The notes: generated by a model from the letters alone, not told the origin. DNA of 64,000 bases from an uncultured Armatimonadetes bacterium (GCA_963717145.1 OY970325.1:4640001-4704000); one strand, 5' to 3'. Positions 19,006-61,456 are shown, counted from the stretch's first letter. A program made the numbers and translations.

Positions 19006-20979
19006 ATGTTCGACGAACTTGATAAGATACTTCCGCGCGTCACCAAGCCCGCGCGGTACACAGGTGGCGAATATAACGCTGTGGTGAAAGACCATGCCTC
19101 AGTGCAGGTCAAATTCGCCCTGGCGTTCCCCGATACCTACGAGATCGGCATGTCGAATCTCGGAGTCCGCATCCTCTACCACACGCTCAACAAGCGAGAC
19201 GACACCGCCGCCGAGCGAGTCTTCGCCCCATGGACTGACATGGAGGACGAGATGCGGCGGAACGAGATCCCGCTTTTCAGCATCGAAACCCGCACGCCGC
19301 TCCGCGAGTTCGACATCATCGGCTTCTCCCTCGGCTATGAGATGGCGTACACCACGATGGTGAATATGCTCGATCTCGCCGGGTTGCCGGTCCGCTCATC
19401 CGAGCGCGATGACCAGTTGCCGCTCGTGATCGCCGGTGGATGCTGCACCGTCAACCCCGAGCCGATCGCGGAGTTCATCGACGCGTTCGTCATTGGCGAG
19501 GGCGAGGAGATCGTCCACGAGATCATCGACCTCGTGAAGGAGCACAAGTCCGAGGGCAAGGCGTCCCTGCTGCGGCGACTGTCACAGGTCCAAGGCGTAT
19601 ACGTTCCCAGCTTCTACGATGTCTCCTACAACGACGACGGCACGATCCGCGAAGTCACCCCGCGCGACGCCGATGTCCCGAAGGTCGTCACGCGTCGCCT
19701 CATCTGGGACTTCGAACACGCGGATTTCCCGGACAGGCCCGTGATGCCGTTCATCGAGACGGTGCATGACCGCATCGCCCTGGAGATCATGCGCGGGTGC
19801 TCTCGTGGATGTCGGTTCTGTCAGGCAGGCACAGTCTACCGCCCGGTCCGCGAGCGCTCGAAACAGAAGCTGATGGAAACCGCGGAGGCGCTCGTCGAGA
19901 ACACAGGCTACGACGAGATTGCGCTCATGTCCCTCTCCGCCACCGATCACAGCGAGATCAGCGGTCTTGTGGCCGACATCATCAAGACATACGAGCCCCA
20001 AAGGATCGGGGTGTCGCTCCCGTCGATCCGAGTCGATGCGCCGTGCGTCGACCTCGCCGCCGAGATACAGAAGGTGCGGAAGAGCGGGCTGACACTCGCG
20101 CCGGAAGCCGGCACTCAGCGGATGCGCGATGTGATCAACAAGAACGTGACCGAGGAGGATCTCTTCAGCGCGGTCAGTGAGGCGTTCAAGTGCGGTTGGC
20201 AGACCGTCAAGCTCTACTTCATGATCGGCCTCCCGACCGAGACCGAGGAGGACCTGCGCGGGATCGCCCGGCTCGCGATGAAGGTCACTCAGATCGGGCG
20301 TCAAGTCATGGGCCGGAAGCCGACTGTGAACGTCAGCGTCGCCTCGTTCGTCCCGAAGCCGCATACGCCGTTTCAGTGGCGTGCACAGGATACTGTCGAG
20401 GAACTCGAGAGAAAGCAGACGCTCGTCCGATACGCGATCACCGATCGTGCCGTCAAGGTTAGCTGGCACGATTCGAAGACCAGCATGCTCGAGGGAGTCC
20501 TCGCTCGAGGTGACCGCAGGGTGGGGGATGTCATCTATCGCGCCTGGCAGAACGGCAGCCGGTTCGATGCATGGCACGAGCATTTCAACTACCAGGCGTG
20601 GCTCGACGCCTTCCGGGAGGCCGGAATCGATCCGTCCTTCTATGCGAGCCGCACGAGAAGCTACGATGAGGTCCTCCCGTGGGATCATATCGACTGCGGC
20701 GTGACAAAGGCGTTCCTCCGGGCCGAGAATGAGCGCGCCGAGAAGGGCGATACAACCGCCGACTGCCGGCTGGATAGATGTTCCGGCTGTGGACTGACAA
20801 GGCTTCTGCCGCCGTCACCGGAGTACAACTCCGGTGACAACATGTCAGGATGCGGTGACAACACCTTAGGTACCGGTGACAACATTCTCAAAGACCGTTG
20901 TCACCGGAGTTGTACTCCGGTGACCAAGACTCCTCGTTGTCACCGGAGTTGTACTCCGGTGACGGTCACGGGGGAATGA
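19006..20979 (+). CDS. TIGR03960-family B12-binding radical SAM protein; C-terminal tail encoded by palindromic repeats
   Basis: KPARYTGGE, FPDTYEIGMSNLG, RGCSRGCRFC and KLYFMIGLPTET motifs. Confidence 0.9.
   Translation: MFDELDKILPRVTKPARYTGGEYNAVVKDHASVQVKFALAFPDTYEIGMSNLGVRILYHTLNKRDDTAAERVFAPWTDMEDEMRRNEIPLFSIETRTPLREFDIIGFSLGYEMAYTTMVNMLDLAGLPVRSSERDDQLPLVIAGGCCTVNPEPIAEFIDAFVIGEGEEIVHEIIDLVKEHKSEGKASLLRRLSQVQGVYVPSFYDVSYNDDGTIREVTPRDADVPKVVTRRLIWDFEHADFPDRPVMPFIETVHDRIALEIMRGCSRGCRFCQAGTVYRPVRERSKQKLMETAEALVENTGYDEIALMSLSATDHSEISGLVADIIKTYEPQRIGVSLPSIRVDAPCVDLAAEIQKVRKSGLTLAPEAGTQRMRDVINKNVTEEDLFSAVSEAFKCGWQTVKLYFMIGLPTETEEDLRGIARLAMKVTQIGRQVMGRKPTVNVSVASFVPKPHTPFQWRAQDTVEELERKQTLVRYAITDRAVKVSWHDSKTSMLEGVLARGDRRVGDVIYRAWQNGSRFDAWHEHFNYQAWLDAFREAGIDPSFYASRTRSYDEVLPWDHIDCGVTKAFLRAENERAEKGDTTADCRLDRCSGCGLTRLLPPSPEYNSGDNMSGCGDNTLGTGDNILKDRCHRSCTPVTKTPRCHRSCTPVTVTGE
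20812..20965. repeat. Cluster of three 25-bp palindromes GTCACCGGAGT(ACA/TGT)ACTCCGGTGAC inside the 3' end of the radical SAM gene
   Basis: Copies at 20814-20838, 20900-20924 and 20939-20963; ggtgacaaca fragments at 20833, 20854 and 20875. Confidence 0.9.
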
Positions 20980-21686
20980 TGTTCCGTGTCCTGCTGCGGC
21001 TTAAGAAAGGTGAGCAGATCAAGTACATCGCTCATCTTGATCTCATGCGCGCGTTCGAGCATGCTCTTCGGCGGGCGCGCATACCGGTGCTCTACTCGTC
21101 GGGGTTCAACCCGAGGCCGAAGATGCACTTCGGCGGGGCGATCGGCGTCGGGGTTACCAGCGATGACGAGCGGATCGTGCTCGATTTGGAGTGCGATGGC
21201 TCGACATCGCTTTCGGCGAACGGCGTCGAGCCGCCCGAGACCAAAGCGATGTCAAGCCATCGCACTCCAAAGGAGATCATGGCCCGGCTGAACCGTGTGA
21301 TGCCCGTGGGGATGGAGATCCTCGAGGCGGCGGACGTGCCGGAGGGGACGAAACCACTCGGCGCTCTCAATGCGGCGGAGTACCGGATCGGACTGCGCTG
21401 TCCGGCGGATCCGCAGACGGTCCGGTCCGCAGTGGACGAACTGATGGCTGCGGATGAGATCAAAGTCGTCCGGAAGCGCGACGAGTCGAAAGAGATAGAT
21501 ATCCGCCGCCATATCCTGGGGATCGAAGTCGACGAATGCGCAATGGGTAAGCTGGTGCTGACTGCCCGACTCATGGCAGGCAGTTCCGGTGGCGCGAGGC
21601 CTCAGGACCTCGTCCAGGCGCTCGCAGACCGCCTTCCCGGTTTGGAAGTGGACACTGTTCACAAGGTCAGACAGTACGCAGTCTGA
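20976..21686 (+). CDS. TIGR03936-family radical SAM-linked protein (DUF2344) with an in-frame palindromic insert
   Basis: KYIAHLDLMRAFEHALRRA..YSSGFNPRPK; ATGA overlap with the upstream gene. Confidence 0.9.
   Translation: MMFRVLLRLKKGEQIKYIAHLDLMRAFEHALRRARIPVLYSSGFNPRPKMHFGGAIGVGVTSDDERIVLDLECDGSTSLSANGVEPPETKAMSSHRTPKEIMARLNRVMPVGMEILEAADVPEGTKPLGALNAAEYRIGLRCPADPQTVRSAVDELMAADEIKVVRKRDESKEIDIRRHILGIEVDECAMGKLVLTARLMAGSSGGARPQDLVQALADRLPGLEVDTVHKVRQYAV
21185..21271. repeat. REP-like element TTTGGAGTGCG...CGCACTCCAAA, in frame (87 bp)
   Basis: 29-bp arms with 1 mismatch, at 21185-21213 and 21243-21271. Confidence 0.85.
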
Positions 21687-21695
21687 CCAGGAGTG

Positions 21696-21730
21696 CGGGA
21701 TTCCGCATTCCGCATTCGCAATACCGCATT
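21696..21730. repeat. (CGCATT)-type dispersed element, copy 2, inverted relative to 2544-2578
   Basis: cgggattccgcattccgcattcgcaataccgcatt. Confidence 0.75.
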
Positions 21731-21749
21731 CGAGAAAGGAGGTGAAACA

Positions 21750-23555
21750 ATGTCAAAAGAAATCGTAGTAAACGTCGGTACCCGCGAAACGAGAATGGCG
21801 CTCATCGACGCCGGGAAGCTCGTCGAGCTTCACGTCGAGCGCGAGGAGCGGGTCGCCGGCAGTGTATACAAGTGCAGAGTCGCGAACGTGCTTCCCGGAA
21901 TGGATGCCGCGTTCGTCGATATCGGGCTGGAGCGCAATGCCTTCCTGTATGCGGGCGACGTCCTTCCCGAAGCCGGCGAGGAGTTCCCCGCCACGAAGAA
22001 GGAACCTCAGAGGTCCGTGAACATCAAGGACCTGCTCAAGGTCGGTCAGGAGTTGGTCGTCCAGGTAGTCAAAGGCCCGCGCGGAACCAAAGGCGCGCGC
22101 GTATCAACGAGGATATCGCTCCCCGGCAGGTACCTGGTCCTCATGCCCGATGCCGACAACATCGGAATCTCGCGCAAGATAGATGACCCCGCGGAGCGCG
22201 ACCGCCTGAAGAAGATCGCCGACAAGATCAAGCCGCCGAACTGCGGCATGATTGTTCGGACCGAGGCTGAGGGCAGGGGCGACCGCGAACTCCGCGCGGA
22301 TGTGGAGTTCCTCACGCGCATGATGTCGCAGATCCAGGAGAAGGCCAAGGTTACCTCGGCCCCTGGAGTCGTCCATCAGGACCTCAGCCTGGTATTCAAG
22401 ACCATACGCGACGTGTTCGGCGCGAACATCCAGCGGATGTTCATAGACTCGCCGACCGAGTATGACAAGGCCATGGATGTGGTCCATCTCATGTCGCCGA
22501 AGCTCAAATCGCGACTGCTGCTGTATGATGATTCCGAACCGATCTTCGAGCACTTCAGCATCGAGACAGAGATCGACCGGTTGCTCAAACGCAAAGTTTG
22601 GCTCAAGTCCGGTGGCCACCTCACCATTGATGAGACCGAAGCACTGACCACCATTGACGTAAACACCGGTAAGTTCATCGGCAGCACGAGTCTGTCCGAT
22701 ACGATCCTGAAGACGAACCTCGATGCCGCCGGGGAGATCGCACGGCAGCTAAGGCTGCGCGATATCGGCGGGATCATCATCATCGACTTCATCGATATGT
22801 CGAGCGCGAGAGACCGCTCGCACGTCGTGAACGCGCTCGATCGCGCCCTCAAGAAGGACCGCACGCGGACCAAGATCTCGAATATCAGCCCGCTCGGACT
22901 GATCGAGATGACCCGCAAACGGACCGGAGAGACCATCTCCGAGTTGATCAGCGAGGCGTGTCCGTACTGCCAGGGACGAGGAAGCATCCTGTCCCCGGAG
23001 TCGGTGAGCATCAATGTCGAGCGCGAGCTGATGCAGAAGTCCGCTGAGGTCGACGATGAGGCGTTCCTCATCACAGTCAACCCCGAGGTCGCGGAGTTCC
23101 TGATCGGCCCTCGCGGAGAGACGGTCAAGCTGATCGAGGAGCAGATCAGGCGCGCCGTCTACGTGCGGAGCAGCCACGATCAGCACATCGAGAAGTACGA
23201 GATACAGCCCGGCGACCTTCAGGAGATCGAGAAGCAGATGCTTCCGTTCCAGAGGTCGCAGATCGTGGAGTGCGAGGTCGTGCGCAACCCGTTCGTCAGC
23301 CTGCCGAGGGCGGCGGCGTGGGCGGACGGCTACATGGTGGACCTCGCAAACGGCGGGAAGTTCATCGGCCAGAAGGTCAAGGCCCGGCTGATAAGCGTCT
23401 CCCGCTCATACGCGGAGGGCGACGTCCTCAACCCGGTCAAAGCGCCCGGCGAGCGACCGCCCGCCCCGCGCGAGAAAGCCGAGCCGCGTCCGAGAGGCGA
23501 TCGCCGCCCGAGAGGCGACGACCGCCCGAGACGCGACGAACGCTCCGCCGGCTGA
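21750..23555 (+). CDS. rng: Ribonuclease E/G family protein with a C-terminal TRAM-like domain
   Basis: SD AAGGAGGTG; S1 motif VLPGMDAAFVDIG; IDVNTGKF; QLRLRDIGGIIIIDFIDM; CPYCQGRG. Confidence 0.9.
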   Translation: MSKEIVVNVGTRETRMALIDAGKLVELHVEREERVAGSVYKCRVANVLPGMDAAFVDIGLERNAFLYAGDVLPEAGEEFPATKKEPQRSVNIKDLLKVGQELVVQVVKGPRGTKGARVSTRISLPGRYLVLMPDADNIGISRKIDDPAERDRLKKIADKIKPPNCGMIVRTEAEGRGDRELRADVEFLTRMMSQIQEKAKVTSAPGVVHQDLSLVFKTIRDVFGANIQRMFIDSPTEYDKAMDVVHLMSPKLKSRLLLYDDSEPIFEHFSIETEIDRLLKRKVWLKSGGHLTIDETEALTTIDVNTGKFIGSTSLSDTILKTNLDAAGEIARQLRLRDIGGIIIIDFIDMSSARDRSHVVNALDRALKKDRTRTKISNISPLGLIEMTRKRTGETISELISEACPYCQGRGSILSPESVSINVERELMQKSAEVDDEAFLITVNPEVAEFLIGPRGETVKLIEEQIRRAVYVRSSHDQHIEKYEIQPGDLQEIEKQMLPFQRSQIVECEVVRNPFVSLPRAAAWADGYMVDLANGGKFIGQKVKARLISVSRSYAEGDVLNPVKAPGERPPAPREKAEPRPRGDRRPRGDDRPRRDERSAG

Positions 23556-23557
23556 TA

Positions 23558-23635
23558 GATGTCCCCCTTACGAAGGGGGACCGGCCTCCGGGCACTCACG
23601 ATGTCCCCCTTACGAAGGGGGACCGGCCTCCGGGC
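23558..23635. repeat. Two identical 36-bp direct repeats, each with a GTCCCCCTT-acg-AAGGGGGAC hairpin
   Basis: Copies at 23558-23593 and 23600-23635, between convergent genes. Confidence 0.85.
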
Positions 23636-23749
23636 CGAGGGGGTTTCGTCCCCGACGTGTCCGACCAGAACCAACAAGGCCCGTGGATCACCCGATCCGC
23701 GGGCCTTCTCAACTCGGCTGGTTGGTGCGGACCTGAACTCAGAATCCGG

Positions 23750-23781
23750 CATCAACCATCAACCATCCCCCATCAACCATT
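23750..23781. repeat. Heptamer tandem repeat (CATCAAC)n
   Basis: catcaac-catcaac-catcccc-catcaac-catt. Confidence 0.7.
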
Positions 23782-23785
23782 CCCC

Positions 23786-24460
23786 CTACGCCGCAATCGT
23801 CGCGCTCTGGAGATCGGACCAGCCGCCCTTCTTGCCGTCCTTGTAGACCCAGCGCATCTTATAGTGCGCCTGCTTGTTTCCATCGCCGGGCGGGAACGGC
23901 ACAGCAAGCGTATTCCGGGTCGACATATTGACATACCGCATATCGGCCTCGGGGTCCGCCGGTGGGTCCCCGACCTTCACCCAGACCTCGACCGCCCTGA
24001 CGCCTTCGGGCTTGCCCTTTGTGATGTCGTTCGCGTTCTGGTTCCGGATGCGGAGAGTATGCCTCAGGAGGGCGCTGATGTTGATACCTGCGACCGGCTT
24101 ATCCCGTGACCCCTCCGGACCCGGCGGGGGTGAAGACATGCCGCGTTTCGGCAGCCCGAGCGAGGCGCGCTGCTGGTTTGTCATATTCGGATGCCCCTGG
24201 ATGCGCGCCGCCATCGACCTGATCTGCTTCGCGAGGGTAGCCCTCTTGGCCTTCTTAGCCGAACACAAGCCTCTGGCAGTGGTCCGCGCCCTATCATGAT
24301 CGGCCCTGGCCTGAGCGAACTCCGGCGTTGTGGCGACCAGTTCGGCCAGGTCCGCCTCCGTCAGTCCGAACTGCTCCGGATTGGCGGTGAGGTAAGCTAC
24401 ATAGCGGTTCGCCCACTCCTGTAGTTTCAGATCGCTCTCCGGCAAATAGTCTCTTCCCAC
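23786..24460 (-). CDS. Hypothetical protein with an N-terminal helical region and a C-terminal FN3-like beta domain
   Basis: GGAGG SD and GTG start at 24460; DYLPESD..W; LGL; KPEGVRAVEVW; YKMRWV..G..GGWSD. Confidence 0.75.
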   Translation of the reverse strand: MGRDYLPESDLKLQEWANRYVAYLTANPEQFGLTEADLAELVATTPEFAQARADHDRARTTARGLCSAKKAKRATLAKQIRSMAARIQGHPNMTNQQRASLGLPKRGMSSPPPGPEGSRDKPVAGINISALLRHTLRIRNQNANDITKGKPEGVRAVEVWVKVGDPPADPEADMRYVNMSTRNTLAVPFPPGDGNKQAHYKMRWVYKDGKKGGWSDLQSATIAA

Positions 24461-24574
24461 GATGATGATACCTCCAGGCTGGCGTGACCGACGGGAGTCG
24501 GTCCATGATCTCGCGGCCGGCCTCTGATGCCGGCCACCCGGTATAATCATCGGGTATCGATGGCAGTATCTTTA

Positions 24575-24772
24575 GGGGAGAACTCCCGGCTCTACCTCCG
24601 GGAGTTCTTGTCACCATACCCGAGTACTCTCGGCAGCATGCCCAAGAGTTCTTGCCACTAGCCCCAAGAGCTGACGGCAACACACCCGAGAACTCCGGGC
24701 ACTGCACCCAGGAGTTCTCGGCACTACACCCGGAAGCTCACGCCACTATACCCGAGAGCCCTCGGCAAAGCG
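24575..24772. repeat. Non-coding tandem array of nine degenerate 22-bp units with a palindromic core
   Basis: Unit starts 24575, 24597, 24619, 24641, 24663, 24685, 24707, 24729 and 24751; consensus about CCCGAGAGCTCTCGGCACTACA. Confidence 0.85.
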
Positions 24773-24810
24773 GCGTAGAACCCAGGAATGACACGCTAGG
24801 GAGCCGACAT

Positions 24811-24834
24811 CGTCATGCTGAACTCGATTCAGCA
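24811..24834. repeat. Short REP-like hairpin GTCATGCTGAACTCGATTCAGCA
   Basis: tgctgaa-ctcga-ttcagca stem just downstream of the 24861 stop. Confidence 0.45.
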
Positions 24835-24860
24835 CCCACGGTGGAGGCTCCCTGTGTGGA

Positions 24861-25970
24861 CTACTTCGACTTGGCCGGGGGCGGTGGCGCTTTCTTCGGG
24901 GCGGGCGCGCTCTTCAGGACATCGAGGAGGCCGGAGGGGACCATGAGGCGTCCGTTCACGACCTTCATCTTCTGAGCGAGCTTGATCGTCCCGCCGGTCC
25001 ACTCGATGGTGTCTTTCCCCGGCACGAGCGTGTACCGGTTCTTGCCGACGAAGAGCTTCGCCTCTTTCCCGAGCCATTCCACCTTCGCGCCGGGGATCTT
25101 GGCCGCGAGATCGCGGGTCGAGATAGGCTTGCCTGCCACCACGGATGGCTTAGTGGGCGAGGGAACCTGTGAGCCACCCATCGGTTCGTCGGCATAAAGG
25201 ATCTCACCCGTGATCGCATCTACCCCCGCGGCATAGGTCAGGTGCTCCCCCTGGGCATTGTCGCCAAGCACATCGAAGGCCCACATGGTGTTATCCGGGT
25301 CTTGAGAGAGCTCCGGATCGTAGTTTGCGCCTCCCGTTACCAGCCCTTTCGCGGTTTTCACTATCTCTATCGCCTGCTCTGCGGTGATCTGCGGCGCTTG
25401 AGGAGGCGGCATCGGAACTGCAAGACGGGAGCAGCCGTAATACTGAATACGACCGTCTGCGGGGCTCACCCTCACGCTGATGCTATTGGGAATCCACGCT
25501 CCGTAAGTATTCTTCCGTCGCCAGGAAAACCACCATCCATCGCCTTTCCACTTCGGTTCCTTCAATTGGAACCCCATGGTATCAAACTCGGCGTACTTTG
25601 CTCGGGCAAAGTTTTCCGCGATCTGCCGGCACTGCTCCTGCGTGAGTGGACCCGTAGGTTCCTCCGTTCGCACCTCCGAACGGGCTTCGTAGTAACTGGC
25701 CCTCGTCACCTCACCTGTGACGGCGTCGACGGTCCACCTATGGTCCTCATTCTGGGAGTCATAGATACGATAGGTTCTCTCATGCTCCCATTCGACACCT
25801 TCCAGGTCCTCCTCGATGGGATGGCAGGTAAGCTGGAGCGTGCTATTCCCCTCGAACGCTCGGACCGCATCCATAGCCTGCCCCCGACTGATCACCGACT
25901 GGCCCCTGCATCCGGCGGCCATGGTTACCAGCGCATAGCATATCAAAGCAAGCATTCGCAAACGTTTCAT
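24861..25970 (-). CDS. Secreted protein with PepSY/YcdB-like repeats and a C-terminal stalk-like module; paralog A
   Basis: Signal or lipoprotein-like N-terminus; VDAVTGEV, ITAEQAIEIV and VDAITGEI motifs; C-terminal VVNGRLMVP. Confidence 0.7.
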   Translation of the reverse strand: MKRLRMLALICYALVTMAAGCRGQSVISRGQAMDAVRAFEGNSTLQLTCHPIEEDLEGVEWEHERTYRIYDSQNEDHRWTVDAVTGEVTRASYYEARSEVRTEEPTGPLTQEQCRQIAENFARAKYAEFDTMGFQLKEPKWKGDGWWFSWRRKNTYGAWIPNSISVRVSPADGRIQYYGCSRLAVPMPPPQAPQITAEQAIEIVKTAKGLVTGGANYDPELSQDPDNTMWAFDVLGDNAQGEHLTYAAGVDAITGEILYADEPMGGSQVPSPTKPSVVAGKPISTRDLAAKIPGAKVEWLGKEAKLFVGKNRYTLVPGKDTIEWTGGTIKLAQKMKVVNGRLMVPSGLLDVLKSAPAPKKAPPPPAKSK

Positions 25971-26101
25971 ATCGACAATCCATCCTTTCTACTCAGGGGC
26001 GGGAAACGGGGACAGGCACAGTATTTACAGTACGATCAAGACGCTGACTCGGCATCGTCACATCTACCTCGCGAGTGATCCGTTCCCCCATGTTTCCGCA
26101 A

Positions 26102-26127
26102 GGAGGGAGCCGCTTGCGGCTCCCTCC
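26102..26127. terminator. Hairpin after paralog B (possible terminator)
   Basis: ggagggagccgc-tt-gcggctccctcc; no clear U-tail. Confidence 0.45.
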
Positions 26128-26138
26128 GGTAATACGAC

Positions 26139-27236
26139 CTACTTCGACTTAGCTGGGGTCGATGGAGCTTTCTTCGAGGCGGGCGGGCTCTTCAGGACAT
26201 CGAGGAGGCCGGAGGGGACCATGAGGCGTCCGTTCACGAGCTTCATCTTCTGGGAGAGCTTGATCGTGCCGCCGGTCCACTCGATGGTGTCCTTCCCCGG
26301 CACGAGCGTGTACCGGTTCCTGCCGACGAAGAGCTTTGCTTCCTTCCCCAGCCAGTGGACCCGCGCGCCCGGTACCTTGGCCGCGAGGTCGCGGATGGAG
26401 ATGGGATTGCCGGTACGCCCATCTCTTGGCGGGCTGGACGGGAGACGTGCCCTTGATACGGAGAGGACTTCCCCCGTTTCCGCGTCAATGGCTACTGAAT
26501 TGCTGACATACCGGTCTTCCGCATCCAGCCCGCCGATCTCAGTGTTCCACGACACGTTCCCGTCCGGGTCCGCGACCAGGAGCGGCCCTTGCACGTCCAC
26601 AACTTCCACGATCCCCGCGGCTTGGGCAGCAAGGTCGAGCGCCTCAGCGGAGGTCACCTGGGGTGGAGGGGGATTCGGTGTTGGAACGCGAATGGAAGTA
26701 TACTCCAGTATGTAACCGGTTTCAGGTGCAACCACTACAGCAACCATATTGATGGTCAACGCGTCGTATGTGACCCTCTGCTGCCAACCGTAGAGCCAGC
26801 CGGTGCCTATCCATCTCTCCATCGTCAAGACGAATCCCATGGTATCGAATCCATTGTACTTCGACTGAGCGAAGTCCTCCGCAGTTGGCCGATATGCTTC
26901 CTTGGTAAATGGCTCGCCGGGCTCGCCATATGGCACTGACTCACCTAGATCGGCATATGAGGCGTGATTCACCTCTGCACTATGTCCATCCACCGTCCAC
27001 AGGCGACGGGACGCCGGATAGTCCGCAGTCCTCAATGTGTACCAAGAGCGGTGACTCCATGCCGGTCCGCTGTCATCCTCTTGCAGTTCTACGCACGTAA
27101 GCGCCAGAGAAGGTTCGTTCTCGAAGTCACGGACAGCCTGCTTAGCAGCCTCTTCCGTAATCAGCCCCTGTGCGAGGACAAGTGCACACTGGAGCACGAG
27201 CCAAGCGGCAATGGCAACGCGAATGATGAGTTTCAT
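26139..27236 (-). CDS. Secreted PepSY/YcdB-like protein; paralog B
   Basis: Same architecture as paralog A; the last ~85 aa are nearly identical to it. Confidence 0.7.
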   Translation of the reverse strand: MKLIIRVAIAAWLVLQCALVLAQGLITEEAAKQAVRDFENEPSLALTCVELQEDDSGPAWSHRSWYTLRTADYPASRRLWTVDGHSAEVNHASYADLGESVPYGEPGEPFTKEAYRPTAEDFAQSKYNGFDTMGFVLTMERWIGTGWLYGWQQRVTYDALTINMVAVVVAPETGYILEYTSIRVPTPNPPPPQVTSAEALDLAAQAAGIVEVVDVQGPLLVADPDGNVSWNTEIGGLDAEDRYVSNSVAIDAETGEVLSVSRARLPSSPPRDGRTGNPISIRDLAAKVPGARVHWLGKEAKLFVGRNRYTLVPGKDTIEWTGGTIKLSQKMKLVNGRLMVPSGLLDVLKSPPASKKAPSTPAKSK

Positions 27237-27279
27237 TGCAGTATCTCCTAGTGTTGATTTCTGTGCTTTCCGATGCAGC

Positions 27280-28398: not shown

Positions 28399-28452
28399 GC
28401 TTGTTTCCTTTCCGGATTAGTCGCCCGGTCATCTATCCCGACGCTGCTCTGC

Positions 28453-32228: not shown

Positions 32229-32361
32229 ACCTCATACCTCCTTCGCGTAGTTTGCGGGAGCGCTGATAATCCCAGCTTCGACGTGTAACCTTAAACTCCT
32301 GCTCAGTATAGACGGAAATGAACAGGCGCAGGTTACGGGTGTCTGCGCTATTCTTTCTCCC

Positions 32362-33264: not shown

Positions 33265-33334
33265 GTAGGGGCGAAGCATTGGCTACCGCAAGCCAGCACT
33301 TGTCGGATATCGGAAGCCAATGCTTCGCCCCTAC
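33265..33334. repeat. GTAG-type REPIN (GTAGGGGCGAAGCATTGGC family), copy 1
   Basis: 20-bp perfect arms at 33265-33284 and 33315-33334; the right arm supplies the TAG stop of the 33331 gene. Confidence 0.85.
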
Positions 33335-34569: not shown

Positions 34570-34591
34570 TCTATCCTCCGGGAACAAACGC

Positions 34592-35406: not shown

Positions 35407-35420
35407 GGAGCACTTCTCTG

Positions 35421-36411: not shown

Positions 36412-36894
36412 TCAGCGAATCGGGATACCGTAGACCAGCAGCTTGTCCCTGTTGGTCGGGCCACCGCTCACCGAGCGATATTCCAGGGAGTACTCAATAA
36501 CACTTCCCTTGCTATTCTGCCATTGAGCAATCCAGCGCTGGACATCCTCCTCGGGCTTCGTCGTTCCGTCAACGAAGAACACCCAACCTCTAACATGCGA
36601 AGACGGCAGGCCAGGGTTCAGGACATCGTCCCTCAGAGGCTTATAGCCAAGAGCATCTAAGCGATCAGAGATCTCCTTCAGTGCAGCATCTGCCGGATAC
36701 GGCTGATTCACTTCATACCGAATCTGTCTCGAGCCGCCGACAACGCTGTAGTGTACGTCCTTGGCGCCCTTCACAACTATCAACGCCTTCGGATCCTGCT
36801 TCGCACATCCGCCGAGGATCATAGCCGCTGCCAGCACAGCCCACGAGAATCGACTCTTACGCGATAGCATAATCATTGCCTCCTCCGAATTCAC
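36412..36894 (-). CDS. Hypothetical lipoprotein
   Basis: Lipobox ILGGC; start overlaps the upstream stop. Confidence 0.6.
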   Translation of the reverse strand: MNSEEAMIMLSRKSRFSWAVLAAAMILGGCAKQDPKALIVVKGAKDVHYSVVGGSRQIRYEVNQPYPADAALKEISDRLDALGYKPLRDDVLNPGLPSSHVRGWVFFVDGTTKPEEDVQRWIAQWQNSKGSVIEYSLEYRSVSGGPTNRDKLLVYGIPIR

Positions 36895-39410
36895 TTTCTC
36901 TTATAGACAATCACGGCTGCTTCCGGTTGCATTCTGAGCGTGACGAGATAGCCCGTCTCCATCAAGTCCTTCCCGGTCGCCTCGATGGTTTCCTTCGAGT
37001 CGAAGCTCGACACCTTGTACCGCGCCTCGGGATCGAGGCCCTGGAGCTTGAAGCGCGCCAACTCATAGGCGCTGTTCGGACGACGGAACGCCTGCACCAT
37101 CCCCGCGCCGAGGTCCGGGCGGTCGAACTGCCAGGCCATCCACTGGTCGTACTCCAGCGAATACTTCGTGAGCGGGTAGAAGTCGCCGTAGTAGTAATCG
37201 ACCACCTGCCGCCACTCGCCGATCAGCTTCCGAAGGAGCGGCCAGTCGATGTCCGTGCGCCGCACGTCCGGGCCGAGCGTCGTGTTCGGGCACATCGTGC
37301 TCCGGAAGATGTAGGTATCGAACTTGATGAACCCTGTGCCGTAGAACGGCAGCCATGACGCCAGCCCGTAGGTGTGGCACTGCTCGCCGACGGGATCGAA
37401 GATGTAGTCGCTTCGGAGCAAGGGCACGCTCCGGCGCATCGTCTCCAGGTCGTTCCGATGCCCGCCGGACGCGCAGGAGTCGATCAGCATGTCGGGCCGC
37501 CTGTGCCGAAGCTCGTCCCAGAATGCGAGGTAGCCGGTTACGTAGTGGTTCTCGGTGATTCCCTGGCGATTGGCGGCGTCGTTTGCGCGCCAGTAGGAGA
37601 GCGGATCGACGTTGTAGTCCTGGCGGTAGGCGTCGATGCCCTGCTCGGTCATCAGCTTGTCGGTGTGATCGGTCACCCACTTGCGGGCCTCAGGATTGCC
37701 GAGGTCGAGGAGTTTCGTCCCGCCGTCCGCGCCGAGCAGCCACTCGGGATGAGTGTCGTAGAGCCATGAACCCGGCGTGACGCGCTCCGGCTCGAACCAG
37801 ACCATCGTCTTGATTCCCCGCTCTCTCGCATAGTCGCTCACCGCGCGGAGGCCGCCGGGGAAGCGCGTCTTATCGACCTCCCACGTGCCGACGCTCGACC
37901 AACTGCCCTTGTTCGGATACCAGCCGGCGTCCATCCACCAGTAGTCCGGCTTGATCCCGTTCTCCAGATAGCGGTCGAGGAAAAGGATCTCGTCCTTCTC
38001 GTTGCATAGCAGGCCGGGGAAATGGTTGCCGCTGACCTCGGGCATGATCGGCTGAGGGAGCTTGCCGCCGTATCGGGGCAGGCTGTGCGCGATCATCCAG
38101 CGCCGCCAGATGTTCTGCGAGCGGACTGGGTCGCCCGTGTAGAATTGCAGGACGATGAGCGGCGTCCGGATCTCCTCCCCGGGATGGAGTGTCAGCTTTG
38201 TCAACTCCTGGCCGGCCTTGATGCGCAGGCCCCCGAATCGCGTTGGGGAGGGAGTTGGACTCCCTCCCCTGACCTGGTCATCGGGGAGGGAGTCCAACTC
38301 CCTCCCCAACGCGATTGGGGTGAACTCCGCCGCCCACTGACCGGGCCAACCGACGACGGCGATCATCCCCTGGTTCTCCCACTGGAGGTTGAAGTAGGGG
38401 AAGACGACCCCGAGCGGGCGACCTCCCGGCGGCGCGAACCGGATGCTCTCTCCCGACTCAAGCTTCGTTTCGAGCGGCTCGAAGTCGCGTGGAGTGACGG
38501 TCGTCCCGGCATGGTGGTGGAGGATGAAGTCGCCCTGACCGGTCCTCTCCAGGCGTAGGTCGAGGGCCTGGATATCGGATATGACCGGAGTGTCCGATTC
38601 GCCGGTGTTCTTGAGGTAAAGTGTCCACTCCACGGTCGGGAAGTCGGTGTATTCGATGCCGACGCACCGCACCTGCAGGCCCTTCGGCTCGGTGTAGATC
38701 AGTGTGTGCTGGATGCGGTTGTCGTCGAGCTTCTTAGAGGCGCGCTCGACTTTCCATGCCTTCGGGTCGAACGGCTTGCCGTCGTAGATGAACGAGAACG
38801 GCGGGTCTGATGTGAGCGCTGAGCCCTTCCCACCGAACGGCAGGTCCCCGAGCCGGATCGACTTGCCGTTCTCCAGGGTGACCGCCGCATCGGCCCAGTC
38901 GGCCTGGTCGCTCGTGATGCCGTCGCCCGCGTCACCGACCGCCAGCACGAACTCGGTCGCGCCATGGAGGTCGACGCTGATCGGCAGCGGGGAATCCCCG
39001 ATGTGCCGCACGCCGGAGTTGAACGCCTCTTTGCTCGCCACGCTCACCGAGAAGACGACGCTCCCACCGCCCGCGCGGGCATCGACGCCGATCACCGACG
39101 CGAACTCCCGGCCCGGCGACGGGAGGCGCACGACGACCCGGCTCGGCGCATGGCAGTAGAGGCCGTGCTGGAAATTCCTGCTGCCGATCCTCAGCGGCTC
39201 GTTCCCGCGAGCGTTCAACTGCACCGGCCCGTGGTTTTCGAGCACGAGCAGCCCGGCCTCCAAGGCCTCCTTTGGCTGCACCCCCTGAAACTTCGCCACC
39301 GCCCACTGATGAGCGGTCTGCATCTCGCCCTTCGTCGGCTCCATCGCATACGATGTCTGCGCAATAGTCATGAGCGCGATAACCCCCGTGATCAGTCTGA
39401 CTATCTTCAT
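36891..39410 (-). CDS. Alpha-galactosidase-like GH36 protein with NPCBM domain; contains an in-frame palindrome
   Basis: GLYCHAPS..DQADWADA (NPCBM); WWMDAGW, VWFEPERV, YRQDYN and DSCASGGHRND motifs. Confidence 0.85.
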   Translation of the reverse strand: MKIVRLITGVIALMTIAQTSYAMEPTKGEMQTAHQWAVAKFQGVQPKEALEAGLLVLENHGPVQLNARGNEPLRIGSRNFQHGLYCHAPSRVVVRLPSPGREFASVIGVDARAGGGSVVFSVSVASKEAFNSGVRHIGDSPLPISVDLHGATEFVLAVGDAGDGITSDQADWADAAVTLENGKSIRLGDLPFGGKGSALTSDPPFSFIYDGKPFDPKAWKVERASKKLDDNRIQHTLIYTEPKGLQVRCVGIEYTDFPTVEWTLYLKNTGESDTPVISDIQALDLRLERTGQGDFILHHHAGTTVTPRDFEPLETKLESGESIRFAPPGGRPLGVVFPYFNLQWENQGMIAVVGWPGQWAAEFTPIALGRELDSLPDDQVRGGSPTPSPTRFGGLRIKAGQELTKLTLHPGEEIRTPLIVLQFYTGDPVRSQNIWRRWMIAHSLPRYGGKLPQPIMPEVSGNHFPGLLCNEKDEILFLDRYLENGIKPDYWWMDAGWYPNKGSWSSVGTWEVDKTRFPGGLRAVSDYARERGIKTMVWFEPERVTPGSWLYDTHPEWLLGADGGTKLLDLGNPEARKWVTDHTDKLMTEQGIDAYRQDYNVDPLSYWRANDAANRQGITENHYVTGYLAFWDELRHRRPDMLIDSCASGGHRNDLETMRRSVPLLRSDYIFDPVGEQCHTYGLASWLPFYGTGFIKFDTYIFRSTMCPNTTLGPDVRRTDIDWPLLRKLIGEWRQVVDYYYGDFYPLTKYSLEYDQWMAWQFDRPDLGAGMVQAFRRPNSAYELARFKLQGLDPEARYKVSSFDSKETIEATGKDLMETGYLVTLRMQPEAAVIVYKRK
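38236..38316. repeat. REPIN-like doublet (GTTGGGGAKGGAGTTGGACTCC family) in frame in the GH36 gene
   Basis: Perfect 34-bp arms at 38236-38269 and 38283-38316; sister copy at 49448-49530. Confidence 0.9.
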
Positions 39411-39433: not shown

Positions 39434-39539
39434 ACCCAGATGCTTCGGTAGCAGAGGCCTGGCGGCGCTACCGAAGCCCCTCGGAGCTAGACCGATGCTT
39501 CGGTAGCGCCACCGGGTTCTGCTACCGAAGCATCTGGGT
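39434..39539. repeat. REPIN-like element (GATGCTTCGGTAGCAGAGGCC family), copy 1
   Basis: Terminal inverted repeat acccagatgcttcggtagcaga...tctgctaccgaagcatctgggt. Confidence 0.85.
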
Positions 39540-39895: not shown

Positions 39896-39989
39896 GATGC
39901 TTCGGTAGCAGAGGCCTGGCGGCGCTGCCGAAGCCCCTCACTCGACCGATGCTTCGGCAGCGCCGCCAGGCCTCTGCTACCGAAGCATC
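39896..39989. repeat. REPIN-like element, same family, copy 2
   Basis: Perfect 39-bp arms at 39896-39934 and 39951-39989. Confidence 0.9.
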
Positions 39990-45545: not shown

Positions 45546-45611
45546 GTAGGGGCGAAGCATTGGCCCTTCGGACTGCGCTGACGTGTGGCAACAATCGCCA
45601 ATGCTTCGCCC
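45546..45611. repeat. GTAG-type REPIN (GTAGGGGCGAAGCATTGGC family), copy 2, right end truncated
   Basis: Arms identical to 33265-33334, with a different spacer. Confidence 0.85.
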
Positions 45612-45618
45612 GGATTTC

Positions 45619-47406: not shown

Positions 47407-47554
47407 GAACACAGAGGCACAGAAGGAAGACGGAAACACAGAAGAGACTGACTGAGACATTAGACCTTAGACTTTGGGTCTGGAGTCTGAAGTCCAAGGT
47501 CTAATGTCTAACAGCAATCCGGTGTTTCCTCTCCCTTCCGTGCTTCCGTGTTCT
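47407..47554. repeat. Nested inverted-repeat element in the glmS leader
   Basis: Outer imperfect pair agaacacagaggcacagaagg / ccttccgtgcttccgtgttct; inner 20-bp arms at 47455-47474 and 47490-47509 with 1 mismatch. Confidence 0.65.
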
Positions 47555-49447: not shown

Positions 49448-49530
49448 TGAAACTCGTTGGGGATGGAGTTGGACTCCATCCCCGTTAAGCCTTGGGGGAT
49501 GGAGTCCAACTCCATCCCCAACGAGTTTCA
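49448..49530. repeat. Intergenic REPIN-like doublet, sister of 38236-38316
   Basis: Perfect 36-bp arms at 49448-49483 and 49495-49530. Confidence 0.9.
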
Positions 49531-53744: not shown

Positions 53745-53848
53745 CGTAGGAGGGATTTTCCGGGATGGTTTGTGCCCGGTAATCCCGAAGGTCGGCGTAT
53801 GCGTTCGGGATTACCGGGCACAAACCATCCCGGAAAATCCCTCCTACG
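53745..53848. repeat. Perfect GTAG-ended inverted repeat, 45-bp arms, 14-nt loop
   Basis: Arms at 53745-53789 and 53804-53848, between convergent genes. Confidence 0.95.
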
Positions 53849-59303: not shown

Positions 59304-59370
59304 GCTGTAGGGGCGTGCCTTGTGCCGCCCGGTACGTGGGTGCGGGCGGCACAAGGCACGCCCCTACAGC
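59304..59370. repeat. GTAG-type REPIN (GTAGGGGCGYGCCTTGTGCCGCCC family), intergenic copy
   Basis: Perfect 28-bp arms at 59304-59331 and 59343-59370. Confidence 0.9.
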
Positions 59371-59413: not shown

Positions 59414-61456
59414 ATGACCAAGCTTATCATCAGCCTGTGCATCCTGATGTGCATCCCGGCGACCGCCGACATCACCGCGATCATACCGGAGATGCCCGGG
59501 ATCGACGCCCAGTGGACGTGCGTCCCGCTGGAGAGCCTCGACCTGAGGAACATGTCGCAGGAGTACGGCGAGCCGAAGATCGCCAAGTCGATCATCGACA
59601 AGCCGCTCACCCTCGGCGGGACCGTATTCGAGCGCGGAGTCGGAAGCCATGCCGCGAGCGAGTTGATCATCGACCTGAAGGGAGCGGCGAAGGCGTTCAT
59701 CGCCATAGTCGGCGTTGATGACAACACGCAGGGCAAGGGCTCGGTGATCTTCAGCATCCTCGTCGATGGCAAGATAGTCGCACGGACCGCCGTAATGAAG
59801 GGCGGCGACAAGCCGATCCGACTCGGCGTTCCCCTCGCAGGCGCGAAGACGATGATCCTGACCGTCGAGGACGCCGGCGACAACATCATGTTCGACCATG
59901 CGGACTGGGCCGACGCGTGCATATTCCTCCCCGGAGACACGGACAAGGCGTTGTACCCGCAGTCGATCGCGCATCTCGGGCAGGAGCCGATGGAGATCGC
60001 CCCCGCCGACAACACGACCCTGCGAATCAACTATCCGCGGATCACCGGCGCGACTCCCGGGCGTCCGTTCCTCTTCCGCATCCCCGCGACCGGCATCCCG
60101 CCCCTCCGGTTCTCCGCCAAGGGCCTCCCCGCGGGACTCACTCTCGATCCGAGCACGGGCATCATCACTGGTTCCCTCCAGGAAGCCGGTGAGTGGAACG
60201 TCGGGCTCACCGTCGCCGAATCCTCTTCGCCTGTAGGGGCGCGCCTTGTGCCGCCCGCCGCGGGGTTGCGGGCGGCACAAGGCGCGCCCCTACAGGCGAA
60301 GGGGTCGTCCGCATCCGCCACGCTCACCATCGTCGGGGGCAACCGCAAGGTCGCGCTCACTCCGCCGATGGGCTGGAACTCCTGGTACTGCTGGAGCAGC
60401 CATATCACCGCCGACAAGATGATGGCCCACGCCGACATCATGGTCAAGTCCGGCCTCGCGGGCCACGGATACCAGTACGTGAACATCGACGACTGCTGGG
60501 AGGGCGGGCGCGACTCGACCGGCGAGATCCAGACTAACGAGCGATTCCCCGACATGAAGGCGATGGCCGACTACATCCACGGCCGCGGCCTGAAGTTCGG
60601 CATCTACTCCTCCCCAGGTCCGCAGACGTGCTCCGGATACGAGGGCACCTACCGCCATGAGGTCCAGGACGCGAAGACCTACGCGCGCTGGGGCGTCGAT
60701 TTCTTCAAGCACGACTGGTGCAGCTATGGGAAGATCGCGAAGGACGGCAGCCTTCCCGAACTCCAGAAGCCCTACGCCATCATGCGCTACGCACTCGACG
60801 CGAGCGGCCGGGACATGGTCTACAGCCTCTGCCAGTACGGCATGGGCAACGTCTGGGAGTGGGGCGACCTCGTCGGCGCGAACATGTGGCGCACGACGGG
60901 CGACCTGCTCGATAGCTGGGGGAACATGGCGCGGATCGGCTTCGGCCACGCCGGTCGGGAGAAGTACGCCGGCCCGGGGCATTGGAACGACCCCGACATG
61001 CTCTGCATCGGCAAGGTCGGATTCGGCAACCTGCGCCCGTCGAAGCTCACGCAGAACGAGCAGATCACGCAGATGACGCTCTGGAGTCTGATCGCCGCGC
61101 CGCTGCTCATCGGCGGCGATATCATGGAGATGGACGAGTTCACGCTCGACATCCTGAGCAACGACGAGGTGATCGCGGTCGACCAGGATCCGCTCGGCAA
61201 GGCGGCGAGTCGGATATGGCAGAAAGGCGACCTGGAGGTCTGGGCCCGCCCGCTCGCGGACGGCACGCATGCGGTCGGCCTCTTCAACCGGAGCGCCTAC
61301 AAGGCGAAGGTAACGGTCCGCTGGTCGGATATCGGAATCATCGGCCCACAACCCGTCCGCGACCTCTGGCGTCACAAGGACCTCGGCGTCTTCTCCGATT
61401 CCTTCTCCGCGACCGTCCTCCCGCACGCGGCGTGGATGATCAAGGTGGGGAAGTAA
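59414..61456 (+). CDS. GH27 alpha-galactosidase with NPCBM and putative Ig (He_PIG) domains; contains an in-frame REPIN
   Basis: TPPMGWNSW, NIDDCW, WGVDFFKHDWC, MWRTTGD and WNDPDML motifs. Confidence 0.9.
   Translation: MTKLIISLCILMCIPATADITAIIPEMPGIDAQWTCVPLESLDLRNMSQEYGEPKIAKSIIDKPLTLGGTVFERGVGSHAASELIIDLKGAAKAFIAIVGVDDNTQGKGSVIFSILVDGKIVARTAVMKGGDKPIRLGVPLAGAKTMILTVEDAGDNIMFDHADWADACIFLPGDTDKALYPQSIAHLGQEPMEIAPADNTTLRINYPRITGATPGRPFLFRIPATGIPPLRFSAKGLPAGLTLDPSTGIITGSLQEAGEWNVGLTVAESSSPVGARLVPPAAGLRAAQGAPLQAKGSSASATLTIVGGNRKVALTPPMGWNSWYCWSSHITADKMMAHADIMVKSGLAGHGYQYVNIDDCWEGGRDSTGEIQTNERFPDMKAMADYIHGRGLKFGIYSSPGPQTCSGYEGTYRHEVQDAKTYARWGVDFFKHDWCSYGKIAKDGSLPELQKPYAIMRYALDASGRDMVYSLCQYGMGNVWEWGDLVGANMWRTTGDLLDSWGNMARIGFGHAGREKYAGPGHWNDPDMLCIGKVGFGNLRPSKLTQNEQITQMTLWSLIAAPLLIGGDIMEMDEFTLDILSNDEVIAVDQDPLGKAASRIWQKGDLEVWARPLADGTHAVGLFNRSAYKAKVTVRWSDIGIIGPQPVRDLWRHKDLGVFSDSFSATVLPHAAWMIKVGK
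60225..60301. repeat. Same REPIN family, in frame inside the GH27 gene
   Basis: Perfect 34-bp arms at 60225-60258 and 60268-60301. Confidence 0.9.

What the first reader, a model, noticed from the sequence alone, without database searches (positions are those of the whole stretch)
20812..60301. Many unrelated palindromic element families coexist, and four have entered protein-coding genes in frame
Seen: about ten distinct REP/REPIN-like families (18715, 20814, 21185, 23558, 33265/45546, 38236/49448, 39434/39896, 47407, 53745, 59304/60225). Four lie inside intact ORFs: TIGR03960, TIGR03936, GH36 and GH27. Several start with GTAG. Knowledge: GTAG REPs are mobilised by RAYT/TnpA-REP HUH transposases and are normally extragenic; coding insertions are best known from Rickettsia palindromic elements. 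No transposase is in the window. Inference: a multi-family system in this lineage that creates new ~25-aa peptide segments in proteins.
Basis: partly seen in the sequence, partly recalled or inferred. Interest (0 to 1): 0.8.

Follow-up and report, generated by a model that had tools for sequence, protein, structure and literature searches.

The report
Mobile DNA hairpins inside protein genes
This soil bacterium's genome is crowded with short mobile palindromic repeats, mostly of the known REP type with their own transposases, and about one in eight sits in frame inside a working gene and adds a floppy loop to its protein, a behaviour already described in other bacteria.

Summary
All ten listed sites are near-perfect palindromes, and nine of the ten belong to multi-copy genome families. 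My genome census found 944 long hairpins in 30 multi-copy clusters. 111 of the 944 lie in frame inside 101 coding ORFs.

All four coding inserts in the window are real. The peptide segments are missing from every same-family ortholog aligned, from 59 of 59 TIGR03936 homologs and from 37 of 39 GH27 homologs. Soil-metagenome contigs of a ~93%-identical relative lack the TIGR03936 and GH36 inserts, by exactly 21 and 24 codons.

The genome encodes seven RAYT-type transposases plus one IS200-type. Five RAYTs score above the NCBIfam cut-off, and each gene is flanked by its own repeat family. Window families E, G, J and B/F have such a partner. A, C, H and I have none; D brackets a DUF559 gene.

The kind is published: Di Nocera et al. 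2013 (PMC3733652) list about 70 in-frame intragenic REPs in Opitutus terrae. This scan had already reported the same thing on other DNA of this genome. It is a large new example, probably in Armatimonadota, not a new kind. Expression is untested.

The parts
18715..18778 (.). Family A doublet, intergenic (27-nt perfect arms)
   Evidence: I8. Arm has 17 genome hits. No transposase partner found.
19006..20979 (+). TIGR03960 B12-binding radical SAM gene; its last ~55 codons are read from the family B array
   Evidence: TIGR03960, 879.8 bits, protein residues 6-599 of 657. The tail is longer than in 10 same-family orthologs.
20812..20965 (.). Family B array: four GTCACC-GGAGT-TGT/ACA-ACTCC-GGTGAC units forming the 3' tail of the TIGR03960 ORF
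   Evidence: It belongs to the GGAGT-N3-ACTCC superfamily. The metagenome relative carries a shorter arrangement at the same site (joint 20842->20935/20896 with 16 other letters).
20976..21686 (+). TIGR03936/DUF2344 radical-SAM-associated gene; its start overlaps the upstream stop (ATGA)
   Evidence: P0001 has 236 aa.
21185..21271 (.). Family C doublet (TTTGGAGTGCGATGGCTCGACATCGCTTT arms) in frame in TIGR03936; net +21 codons
   Evidence: I7. Absent in 10 of 10 same-family orthologs and 59 of 59 homologs. Empty site in the relative: 22 nt replace 85 nt. The insert is a coil with lower pLDDT in the model.
23561..23623 (.). Family D: two direct copies of the hairpin GTCCCCC-TTACGAA-GGGGGAC, starting just after the stop at 23555
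   Evidence: 52 genome hits. The same hairpin type brackets a DUF559 gene elsewhere.
33265..33334 (.). Family E GTAG doublet (GTAGGGGCGAAGCATTGGC), at the 3' end of the minus-strand gene 33331-34866
   Evidence: Its partner RAYT at G000:C1:4204934-4205650 has E units on its flank and inside it.
36891..39410 (-). GH36-like alpha-galactosidase gene with NPCBM domain
   Evidence: Melibiase, NPCBM, Glyco_hydro_36C. Orthologs.
38232..38320 (.). Family F doublet (GTTG-GGGAG-GGAGT-TGG-ACTCC-CTCCC) in frame in GH36; net +24 codons
   Evidence: I3. Absent in 9 of 9 orthologs. Empty site in the relative: 28 nt replace 100 nt.
39434..39539 (.). Family G element (GATGCTTCGGTAGCAGAGGCC...), intergenic
   Evidence: The same family flanks both sides of the RAYT at G000:C1:4478919-4479455.
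39896..39989 (.). Family G doublet, 39-nt perfect arms, intergenic
   Evidence: I2. 49 arm hits.
45546..45611 (.). Family E doublet, 17 nt after the stop at 45529
   Evidence: (I17).
47455..47509 (.). Family H hairpin built from short tandem units; low copy
   Evidence: I13; 9 and 2 hits.
49448..49530 (.). Family F doublet (GGGAT stem variant), 48 nt after the glmS stop
   Evidence: I4. An identical unit lies next to the RAYT at 4878206-4878751.
53745..53848 (.). Family I GTAG-headed doublet, 45-nt perfect arms, intergenic
   Evidence: I1. 70 arm hits. No partner found.
59304..59370 (.). Family J GTAG doublet, starting 4 nt after the stop at 59300
   Evidence: I6. 164 units in the genome. The unit abuts the RAYT at 827030-827575.
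59414..61456 (+). GH27 alpha-galactosidase gene (NPCBM, He_PIG, Melibiase_2, Melibiase_C)
60222..60304 (.). Family J doublet in frame in the He_PIG-to-catalytic-domain junction of GH27; +26 residues
   Evidence: I5. 37 of 39 homologs have 32 residues in this region against 58 here. Absent in 7 of 8 relatives' orthologs; the eighth has a different repeat there.

Best explanation
The elements are REP-type repeats. Each unit is a 20-45-nt hairpin. Most units sit as tail-to-tail inverted doublets (REPIN-like) that can fold into one long hairpin.

Inferred from what is known of RAYT/IS200-type HUH transposases: each family is copied through single-stranded DNA by its own REP-associated tyrosine transposase (RAYT), encoded once elsewhere in the genome and flanked by that family's units.

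Copies land anywhere and selection filters them. Most survivors lie just after stop codons. A copy inside a gene survives only if three conditions hold: the net length change is a multiple of three, the frame read has no stop, and the site is a loop, linker or tail that tolerates about 21-29 extra Gly/Pro/Ser/Ala/Arg-rich residues.

The four window cases are such survivors. They are recent, because a ~93%-identical relative still has the empty sites for two of them.

Shown here: the structure and copy numbers, the RAYT-repeat pairing, the absence from orthologs, the empty sites, the frame preservation, and the predicted loop location for one case. Inferred: that the RAYTs do the copying, that the filter is selection, and that the longer proteins are made.
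For: Census and depletion
- 944 hairpins with >=18-bp arms fall into 30 multi-copy clusters.
- 111 of 944 are in frame in ORFs with coding-like flanks, against 824 of 2000 random placements.
- Families with more stop-free frames are more often in genes (Spearman 0.55, p=0.026, 16 families). Examples: 0 of 75 and 1 of 126 for stop-rich families, 10 of 20 and 12 of 30 for open ones.
- Of 20 randomly sampled host ORFs, 17 have Pfam hits at E<=1e-5. In 10 the hairpin lies within a domain envelope or between two domains.

Transposases
- Five RAYTs score above the NF047646 cut-off. One reaches 74.9 bits, one is split, and one is IS200-type.
- They are 22-38% identical pairwise and all carry HUH.
- Each is flanked by its own family.

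Repeat organisation
- Family J: 164 units, of which 134 are in doublets.
- Family J has 0 copies in 19 of 20 relatives.

Inserts are lineage-specific
- Absent from orthologs.
- Empty sites differ by exactly 63 and 72 nt.

Location in the protein
- The TIGR03936 model has mean pLDDT 91. The insert is a coil between strand 60-71 and helix 98-108, with block pLDDT 63-76.

Age
- In-gene copies are as perfect as the others: 83 of 111 against 626 of 833 have perfect arms.

Lineage
- RAYTs are found in 24 of 40 relatives, up to 7 per genome.
Against: - No partner transposase was found for families A, C, H and I. Family C made the TIGR03936 insert.
- In my MAFFT alignment the RAYTs paired with families B/F and G show no Tyr at the usual YYDH position, so their activity is open.
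- At both empty sites the relative's 22 and 28 nt show no significant similarity to the loop or outer parts of the element here (655 and 423 of 2000 shuffles reach the score). The events look like replacements rather than clean insertions.
- All 67, 131 and 41 doublet spacers of families J, fam1 and E differ in sequence although their lengths are conserved. That fits poorly with a whole doublet transposing as one unit.
- My gene calls are crude (78% coding). At least one 'in-gene' case is two genes read through the element (L063).
Confidence: 0.85

Rival explanations
1. Some families, including family C in TIGR03936, are spread by something other than a RAYT. Candidates are a DUF559-type nuclease, another family's RAYT acting in trans, or a lost enzyme. 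On this view the window mixes at least two kinds of mobile palindrome.
For: - No Y1 gene lies within 3 kb of any family A, C or I copy.
- Five gene-sized intervals bracketed by C heads hold only ordinary genes.
- D-type hairpins bracket a DUF559 gene on both sides.
- A small GIY-YIG gene lies 190 nt from a hairpin of another family.
Against: - The C head (GGAGTGC) resembles the GGAGT-N3-ACTCC units around the RAYT at 4878206, so trans-mobilisation by that RAYT is possible.
- Only two DUF559 genes exist in the genome. Bracketing by abundant intergenic repeats can be chance.
Confidence: 0.3
2. The doublets do not move as units. A single unit, or a copy templated from another locus during break repair or template switching, is built into a palindrome on the spot and replaces a few host bases.
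For: - All doublet spacers are unique in sequence, with a preferred length: 13 nt in 34 of 67 family J and 72 of 131 fam1 doublets, and 31-33 nt in 37 of 41 family E doublets.
- In families J and fam1 the palindrome extends beyond the GTAG head with copy-specific bases far more often than chance. Only 9 of 67 J doublets have no extension, against 50 expected.
- Both empty sites look like replacements.
Against: - Tail-to-tail REP dimers with spacers of similar length but different sequence are already described (PMC3733652, section 'Organization of REP dimers').
- Family E shows no outer extension (35 of 38 with none).
- Only two empty sites were seen, both in a variable loop, from contigs of a ~7% divergent relative.
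Confidence: 0.15
3. The in-gene palindromes are kept because they do something, such as pausing translation or transcription, setting mRNA stability, or providing a useful protein loop. They are not merely tolerated junk.
For: - In-gene copies keep perfect arms as often as intergenic ones.
- Two different families occupy the same GH27 junction in two genera.
- 259 of 544 intergenic copies lie within 20 nt of a stop codon, as expected for terminator-like or mRNA-stabilising roles.
Against: - The inserts are lineage-specific and recent. Their peptides are low-complexity and modelled as a low-confidence coil.
- In-gene copies are depleted about 3.5-fold against random placement.
- Recurrence at one site is equally explained by a permissive linker.
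Confidence: 0.1
4. The segments are old parts of the proteins, or assembly artefacts, and are not insertions.
For: None found.
Against: - 0 of 10, 0 of 9 and 0 of 59 orthologs or homologs carry them.
- The peptide of the TIGR03936 insert matches ten other places in the same genome in translated search.
- The genome is one closed contig.
- Independent metagenome contigs carry family B units at the same site.
Confidence: 0.01

Closest known systems
GTAG-tagged REP superfamily with RAYT 'REPtrons', including intragenic REPs (Di Nocera, De Gregorio & Rocco 2013, PMC3733652; abstract, sections 14-16 and Additional file 3 part 1 read)
   Same: - Short GTAG-headed hairpin units, mostly in inverted dimers.
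- Several families per genome, each with its own flanked tyrosine transposase.
- Location mostly just after stop codons.
- A minority entirely inside ORFs, encoding about 7-30 extra residues, often in glycoside hydrolases. The file lists about 70 rows for Opitutus terrae.
- Tail-to-tail dimers with spacers of like length and unlike sequence.
   Different: - The host is probably Armatimonadota. No paper in the library joins that phylum with REPIN or RAYT (the 15 of 35 papers listed all show 0 occurrences of 'Armatimonadota').
- There are more RAYT-repeat pairs here (7 plus 1), and at least 111 in-gene doublets.
- Three of the four window coding inserts are not GTAG-headed.
REPIN-RAYT systems of Pseudomonas and enterobacteria (Bertels & Rainey 2011, PMC3116915; seen only as search listing and abstract)
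   Same: Inverted REP doublets as the abundant form; single-copy RAYT flanked by its REPs; vertical, lineage-specific populations.
   Different: The spacers here are unique in every copy. There are many coexisting systems. About 12% of long doublets are in coding sequence.
Rickettsia palindromic elements (RPE), 'protein-coding palindromes' (Ogata et al. 2002 and Claverie & Ogata 2003; known to me only from the reference list and text of PMC3733652, and from recall; PMC186582 is not held)
   Same: Palindromic repeats inserted in frame in many unrelated genes, host proteins kept intact, inserts absent from orthologs and thought to sit on the surface.
   Different: No sequence relation was tested. 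By recall, RPEs have no known transposase. Here four of the window's families have a cognate RAYT. The host is a free-living soil organism with a 5.4-Mb genome.

Membership tests
REP/REPIN-RAYT system | Short hairpin-forming unit present in tens to hundreds of copies per genome | tested here: met
   Arms of 9 of the 10 window families have 17-163 hits. Family J has 164 units against 0 for the reversed pattern. Family H is low-copy.
REP/REPIN-RAYT system | Conserved GTAG (or CGTC) tetranucleotide at one end of the unit | tested here: inconclusive
   Met for E, I and J. In G the GTAG is internal to the stem. Not met for A, C, D and H. B and F carry GTTG (57) or GTTC (38) among 194 perfect GGAGT-N3-ACTCC hairpins.
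REP/REPIN-RAYT system | Units mostly arranged as inverted doublets able to fold into one long hairpin | tested here: met
   134 of 164 J units, 262 of 318 fam1 units and 82 of 115 E units are in head-out doublets. 944 long hairpins genome-wide.
REP/REPIN-RAYT system | A cognate RAYT gene flanked by units of the family | tested here: inconclusive
   Met for window families E, G, J and B/F, and for three further families outside the window. Not found for A, C, H and I. D brackets a DUF559 gene instead.
REP/REPIN-RAYT system | The transposase has the HUH motif and the catalytic tyrosine of Y1 enzymes | tested here: inconclusive
   HxH is present in all 8 proteins. A YYDH/YYEH-type Tyr is present in 5 RAYTs. 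None aligns at that position in the RAYTs at 4878206 and 4478919 (MAFFT only). NF047646 scores are 102.6, 100.7, 97.1, 95.8 and 91.8 (cut-off 80), then 74.9 and a split 36.5+20.2.
REP/REPIN-RAYT system | Mainly extragenic, near gene 3' ends | tested here: met
   111 of 944 in ORFs against 824 of 2000 random placements. Median distance to the upstream stop is 24.5 nt, and 259 of 544 lie within 20 nt (crude gene calls).
REP/REPIN-RAYT system | Mobility: presence/absence differences between close relatives | tested here: met
   Contigs of a ~93% relative bridge empty sites at 21184/21270 and 38221/38322. Family J is absent from 19 of 20 relatives searched.
Protein-coding palindromes (RPE-like behaviour) | In-frame insertion with the host ORF intact and homologous on both sides | tested here: met
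   for three internal window cases. Net changes are +63 and +72 nt. The fourth case is a 3'-tail extension.
Protein-coding palindromes (RPE-like behaviour) | Insert lies in a surface loop or linker and leaves the fold intact | tested here: met
   TIGR03936 model: mean pLDDT 91, with the insert a coil at pLDDT 63-76 between a strand and a helix. The GH27 insert lies at a domain junction. Prediction only; GH36 was not modelled.
Protein-coding palindromes (RPE-like behaviour) | Insert-bearing protein is expressed | not testable with these tools
   No RNA run is listed for this DNA. No proteome is available.
MITE derived from an insertion sequence | Terminal inverted repeats with a target-site duplication | tested here: inconclusive
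   At the two empty sites the relative's 22 and 28 nt are replaced. No similarity to element parts, and I saw no flanking direct repeat in the sequences. Only two sites.

The most novel reading that the evidence does not exclude
This genome may hold more than textbook GTAG REPs.

First, a GTTG/GTTC-headed GGAGT-N3-ACTCC hairpin superfamily has freely co-varying outer stems and its own RAYT, which seems to lack the usual catalytic Tyr position.

Second, at least one family that writes itself into proteins (TGGAGTGCG..., in TIGR03936) has no transposase partner.

Third, both dated coding events replaced 22-28 host bases rather than simply inserting.

Together with the always-unique spacers, this could mean that doublets are built in place by a repair or template-switch route that has not been described. 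If so, the lineage is a natural generator of new protein loops in about 100 genes.
Probability: 0.15. Interest if true: 0.6.

Novelty: new member of a known kind. Interest (0 to 1): 0.4.

Why it matters
This is one of the largest sets of translated palindromic repeats in a single genome: at least 111 doublets in 101 ORFs, from several families. The likely transposases are identifiable and empty sites are recoverable from metagenomes. That makes it a usable natural system for three questions: how REP doublets form and move, which protein sites tolerate about 25 random residues, and whether such inserts seed new loops. It also extends RAYT-REP systems to a poorly studied phylum. It does not change the picture of what these elements are.

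Tried and rejected
- RNA evidence: no RNA holder is listed for window 19000-23600, so expression could not be examined.
- Rfam: 0 families reach the gathering score in the window.
- Length mod 3 of the maximal palindrome is uninformative (inside 41/35/35, outside 259/300/274), because the palindrome ends are fuzzy. The exact net changes came from the empty sites instead.
- One search used a mistyped pattern (one N too many). It found 0 hits even in this genome and is void. The corrected pattern was run only on this genome, so the spread of the GGAGT-N3-ACTCC family in relatives is untested.
- Partner search for family C: five intervals bracketed by C heads hold only ordinary genes.
- Test of whether doublet spacers are host target DNA: no significant similarity at the two empty sites.
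- PF01797 alone missed one RAYT. NF047646 found it.
- The exact structure of the relative's family B array could not be resolved, because the units are repeated.
- Literal search for the GGAGT...ACTCC core strings found 3 papers. The 2 listed are unrelated primer text.
- PMC186582 (Ogata 2002) is not held.
- My single-linkage clustering merges related GTAG families into one 177-member cluster, so '30 families' is a rough count.

Full report
Setting. The window is G000:C1:4640001-4704000 of a closed 5,366,867-bp genome with 60.6% G+C. The nearest named homologs of two window proteins are from 'Armatimonadota bacterium' MAGs. The phylum is therefore probably Armatimonadota, as earlier notes of this scan also say.

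Observation. Arms of nine families recur 17-163 times in the genome at >=85% identity. The 47407 element is low-copy and made of short tandem units. The REP unit of family J occurs 164 times, against 0 for the same pattern read backwards.

My own census found 944 non-overlapping hairpins with at least 18 matched arm bases and loops up to 120 nt. They fall into 96 single-linkage clusters, 30 of them multi-copy; the largest have 177, 128, 126, 75 and 65 members. The largest cluster merges several GTAG families, so the family count is approximate. The families are not all unrelated. E, I and J share a GTAG head. B and F share a GGAGT-N3-ACTCC core. That core occurs 194 times with perfectly complementary but varied 5-nt outer stems, preceded by GTTG in 57 cases and by GTTC in 38.

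The four coding cases.

TIGR03936/DUF2344 (20976-21686). The doublet at 21185-21271 splits the profile match. All 10 same-family orthologs lack 21 residues there. So do 59 of 59 database homologs. In translated search the insert peptide matches ten other places in this genome.

GH36-like gene (36891-39410, minus strand). 9 of 9 orthologs lack 24 residues at aa 365-393.

GH27 gene (59414-61456). 37 of 39 homologs have 32 residues where this protein has 58. One homolog, which matches the G001 ortholog, has 118 residues there. They are encoded by a 60-nt tandem array of a different hairpin, CCCTCCCCG-N4-CGGGGAGGG. One further homolog has 54. The junction after the He_PIG domain has thus been colonised independently by different families.

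TIGR03960 gene (19006-20979). This case is different. The profile match ends at residue 599 of 657, and the family B array supplies the tail up to a TGA that overlaps the next ATG. In some relatives the two genes are fused.

Dating. Contigs from four soil-metagenome runs were laid on 20500-40400 at 88% likeness. They include a relative about 93% identical to the window.
- One 1,627-nt contig bridges 21184->21270 with 22 other letters in place of 85, a net difference of 63 nt or 21 codons. It reads DLTEHEPAKEIM, like the other orthologs.
- Contigs in two runs of one sample bridge 38221->38322 with 28 letters in place of 100, a net difference of 72 nt or 24 codons.
- The same relative keeps family B units at 20812-20965 in a shorter arrangement that I could not resolve.
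So the C and F insertions are younger than about 7% divergence, and B is older.

At neither empty site do the relative's letters resemble the loop or outer parts of the element here. The events therefore look like small replacements rather than clean insertions. This is unexplained.

Who moves them. A Pfam Y1_Tnp search found seven loci, and the NCBIfam RAYT model found eight matches at seven genes. Five score above the 80-bit cut-off: 5159741, 3783899, 241995, 4878218 and 827150. One scores 74.9 bits (4478991). One is split, at 4205105 and 4205447. One further gene is IS200-type. The proteins are 22-38% identical to one another and all carry HxH.

Each gene is flanked by its own repeat:
- Family J abuts the RAYT at 827030-827575.
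- Family G lies on both sides of 4478919-4479455.
- Family E lies upstream of 4204934-4205650.
- Other GTAG-type or GTGG-headed units flank 241896 and 5159624.
- The RAYT at 4878206-4878751 was missed by Pfam (20.2 bits) but scores 96.2 bits with NCBIfam. It sits in an array of GGAGT-N3-ACTCC hairpins that includes the exact GGGAT variant of window 49448.

So window families E, G, J and B/F have partners. For A, C, H and I none was found. The RAYTs paired with B/F and G show no Tyr at the YYDH position in my alignment. RAYT genes occur in 24 of 40 relatives of the class, up to seven per genome. Family J itself has 0 copies in 19 of 20 relatives and 1 copy in G006.

Genome-wide coding load. I used a home-made coding model, which% of the genome coding and is crude. 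With it, 111 of 944 hairpins lie in a stop-free frame with at least 150 nt of coding-like sequence in the same frame on both sides. The same test passes 824 of 2000 random placements.

The 111 hairpins occupy 101 ORFs. Nine ORFs hold more than one, up to three. None lies in the first tenth of the protein (the test requires 150 nt of ORF on each side). The median encoded segment is 29 residues. The commonest residues are G, P, S, A and R.

In a random sample of 20 host ORFs, 17 have Pfam hits. In 10 the hairpin is inside a domain envelope or between two domains. One case (L063) is probably two genes read through the element.

The in-gene fraction per family rises with the number of stop-free frames (Spearman 0.55, p=0.026, 16 families). 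In-gene copies are as perfect as the others. Intergenic copies hug stop codons, at a median of 24.5 nt.

An AlphaFold model of the TIGR03936 protein has mean pLDDT 91. It places the insert as a coil with block pLDDT 63-76 between strand 60-71 and helix 98-108.

Doublet anatomy. In families J, fam1 and E, 67, 131 and 41 head-out doublets have preferred spacer lengths: 13 nt for J and fam1, and 31-33 nt for E. Every spacer sequence is unique. In J and fam1 the palindrome often runs several copy-specific bases beyond the GTAG head. The literature already notes tail-to-tail dimers with spacers of similar length and different sequence. I therefore treat this as a lead on mechanism, not as a new kind.

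Comparison with what is known. Di Nocera et al. 2013 (PMC3733652; abstract, sections 14-16 and part 1 of Additional file 3 read) describe the following:
- GTAG- and CGTC-tagged REP superfamilies.
- Family-specific transposase loci.
- REPs entirely inside ORFs in many species.
- About 70 listed rows for Opitutus terrae, several of them in glycoside hydrolases.
- Rickettsia RPEs as members of the same picture.

I found no paper joining Armatimonadota with REPIN or RAYT, and none with the GGAGT...ACTCC core. Earlier agents of this scan reached the same reading on other windows of this genome.

Verdict. The phenomenon is a known kind, seen here in a new phylum and at unusually large scale. Three matters stay open: families without a mobiliser, replacement-like empty sites, and expression of the longer proteins.

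Noticed in passing
window 23694-32357: Contigs of the ~93% relative join 23693 to 32358 with 31 other letters, so an 8.66-kb gene block present here is absent there.
   Followed up: no
window 23480-23555: The C-terminal part of the gene ending at 23555 is a short tandem repeat. One metagenome contig lacks 21 nt at 23516.
   Followed up: no
G000:C1:4204934-4205650: The RAYT next to family E carries units of its own repeat family in frame inside its ORF, at 4205360 and 4205399 with a degenerate partner near 4205310. They add about 45 residues after the HUH motif and split its family match in two.
   Followed up: partly
L040:2684-2985 (G001 ortholog of the GH27 gene): A 60-nt tandem array of CCCTCCCCG-N4-CGGGGAGGG hairpins adds 86 residues at the same junction where this genome has the family J doublet. 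It is a different family at the same site.
   Followed up: partly
G000:C1:5226560-5227025: A DUF559 gene (5226639-5226962) is bracketed by D-type hairpins in inverted orientation: the CCCCTCC variant upstream and the GTCCCCC variant at 5227003. The same hairpin type is at window 23561-23623.
   Followed up: partly
L063 = G000:C1:607482-608408: One open frame runs from an RNase H-like domain (aa 10-131) through an F-type doublet (141-166) into a UPF0047 domain (195-307). It is either a fusion made by the repeat or two genes with the stop lost.
   Followed up: no
window ~40003-42448, minus strand: The neighbouring GH36 paralog is matched in two different frames: residues 287-838 in one and 3-291 in another. 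It may be frameshifted.
   Followed up: no
window 45618-45650: A run of GAGTAT hexamers directly follows the family E doublet. Similar short-unit tandem hairpins form clusters 6 and 7 of the census.
   Followed up: no
G000:C1:242411-242700: Downstream of the RAYT at 241896-242408 lies a tandem array of about 41-nt units containing GGGCGGGCGTAGAAGCACCGCCCCTAC.
   Followed up: no
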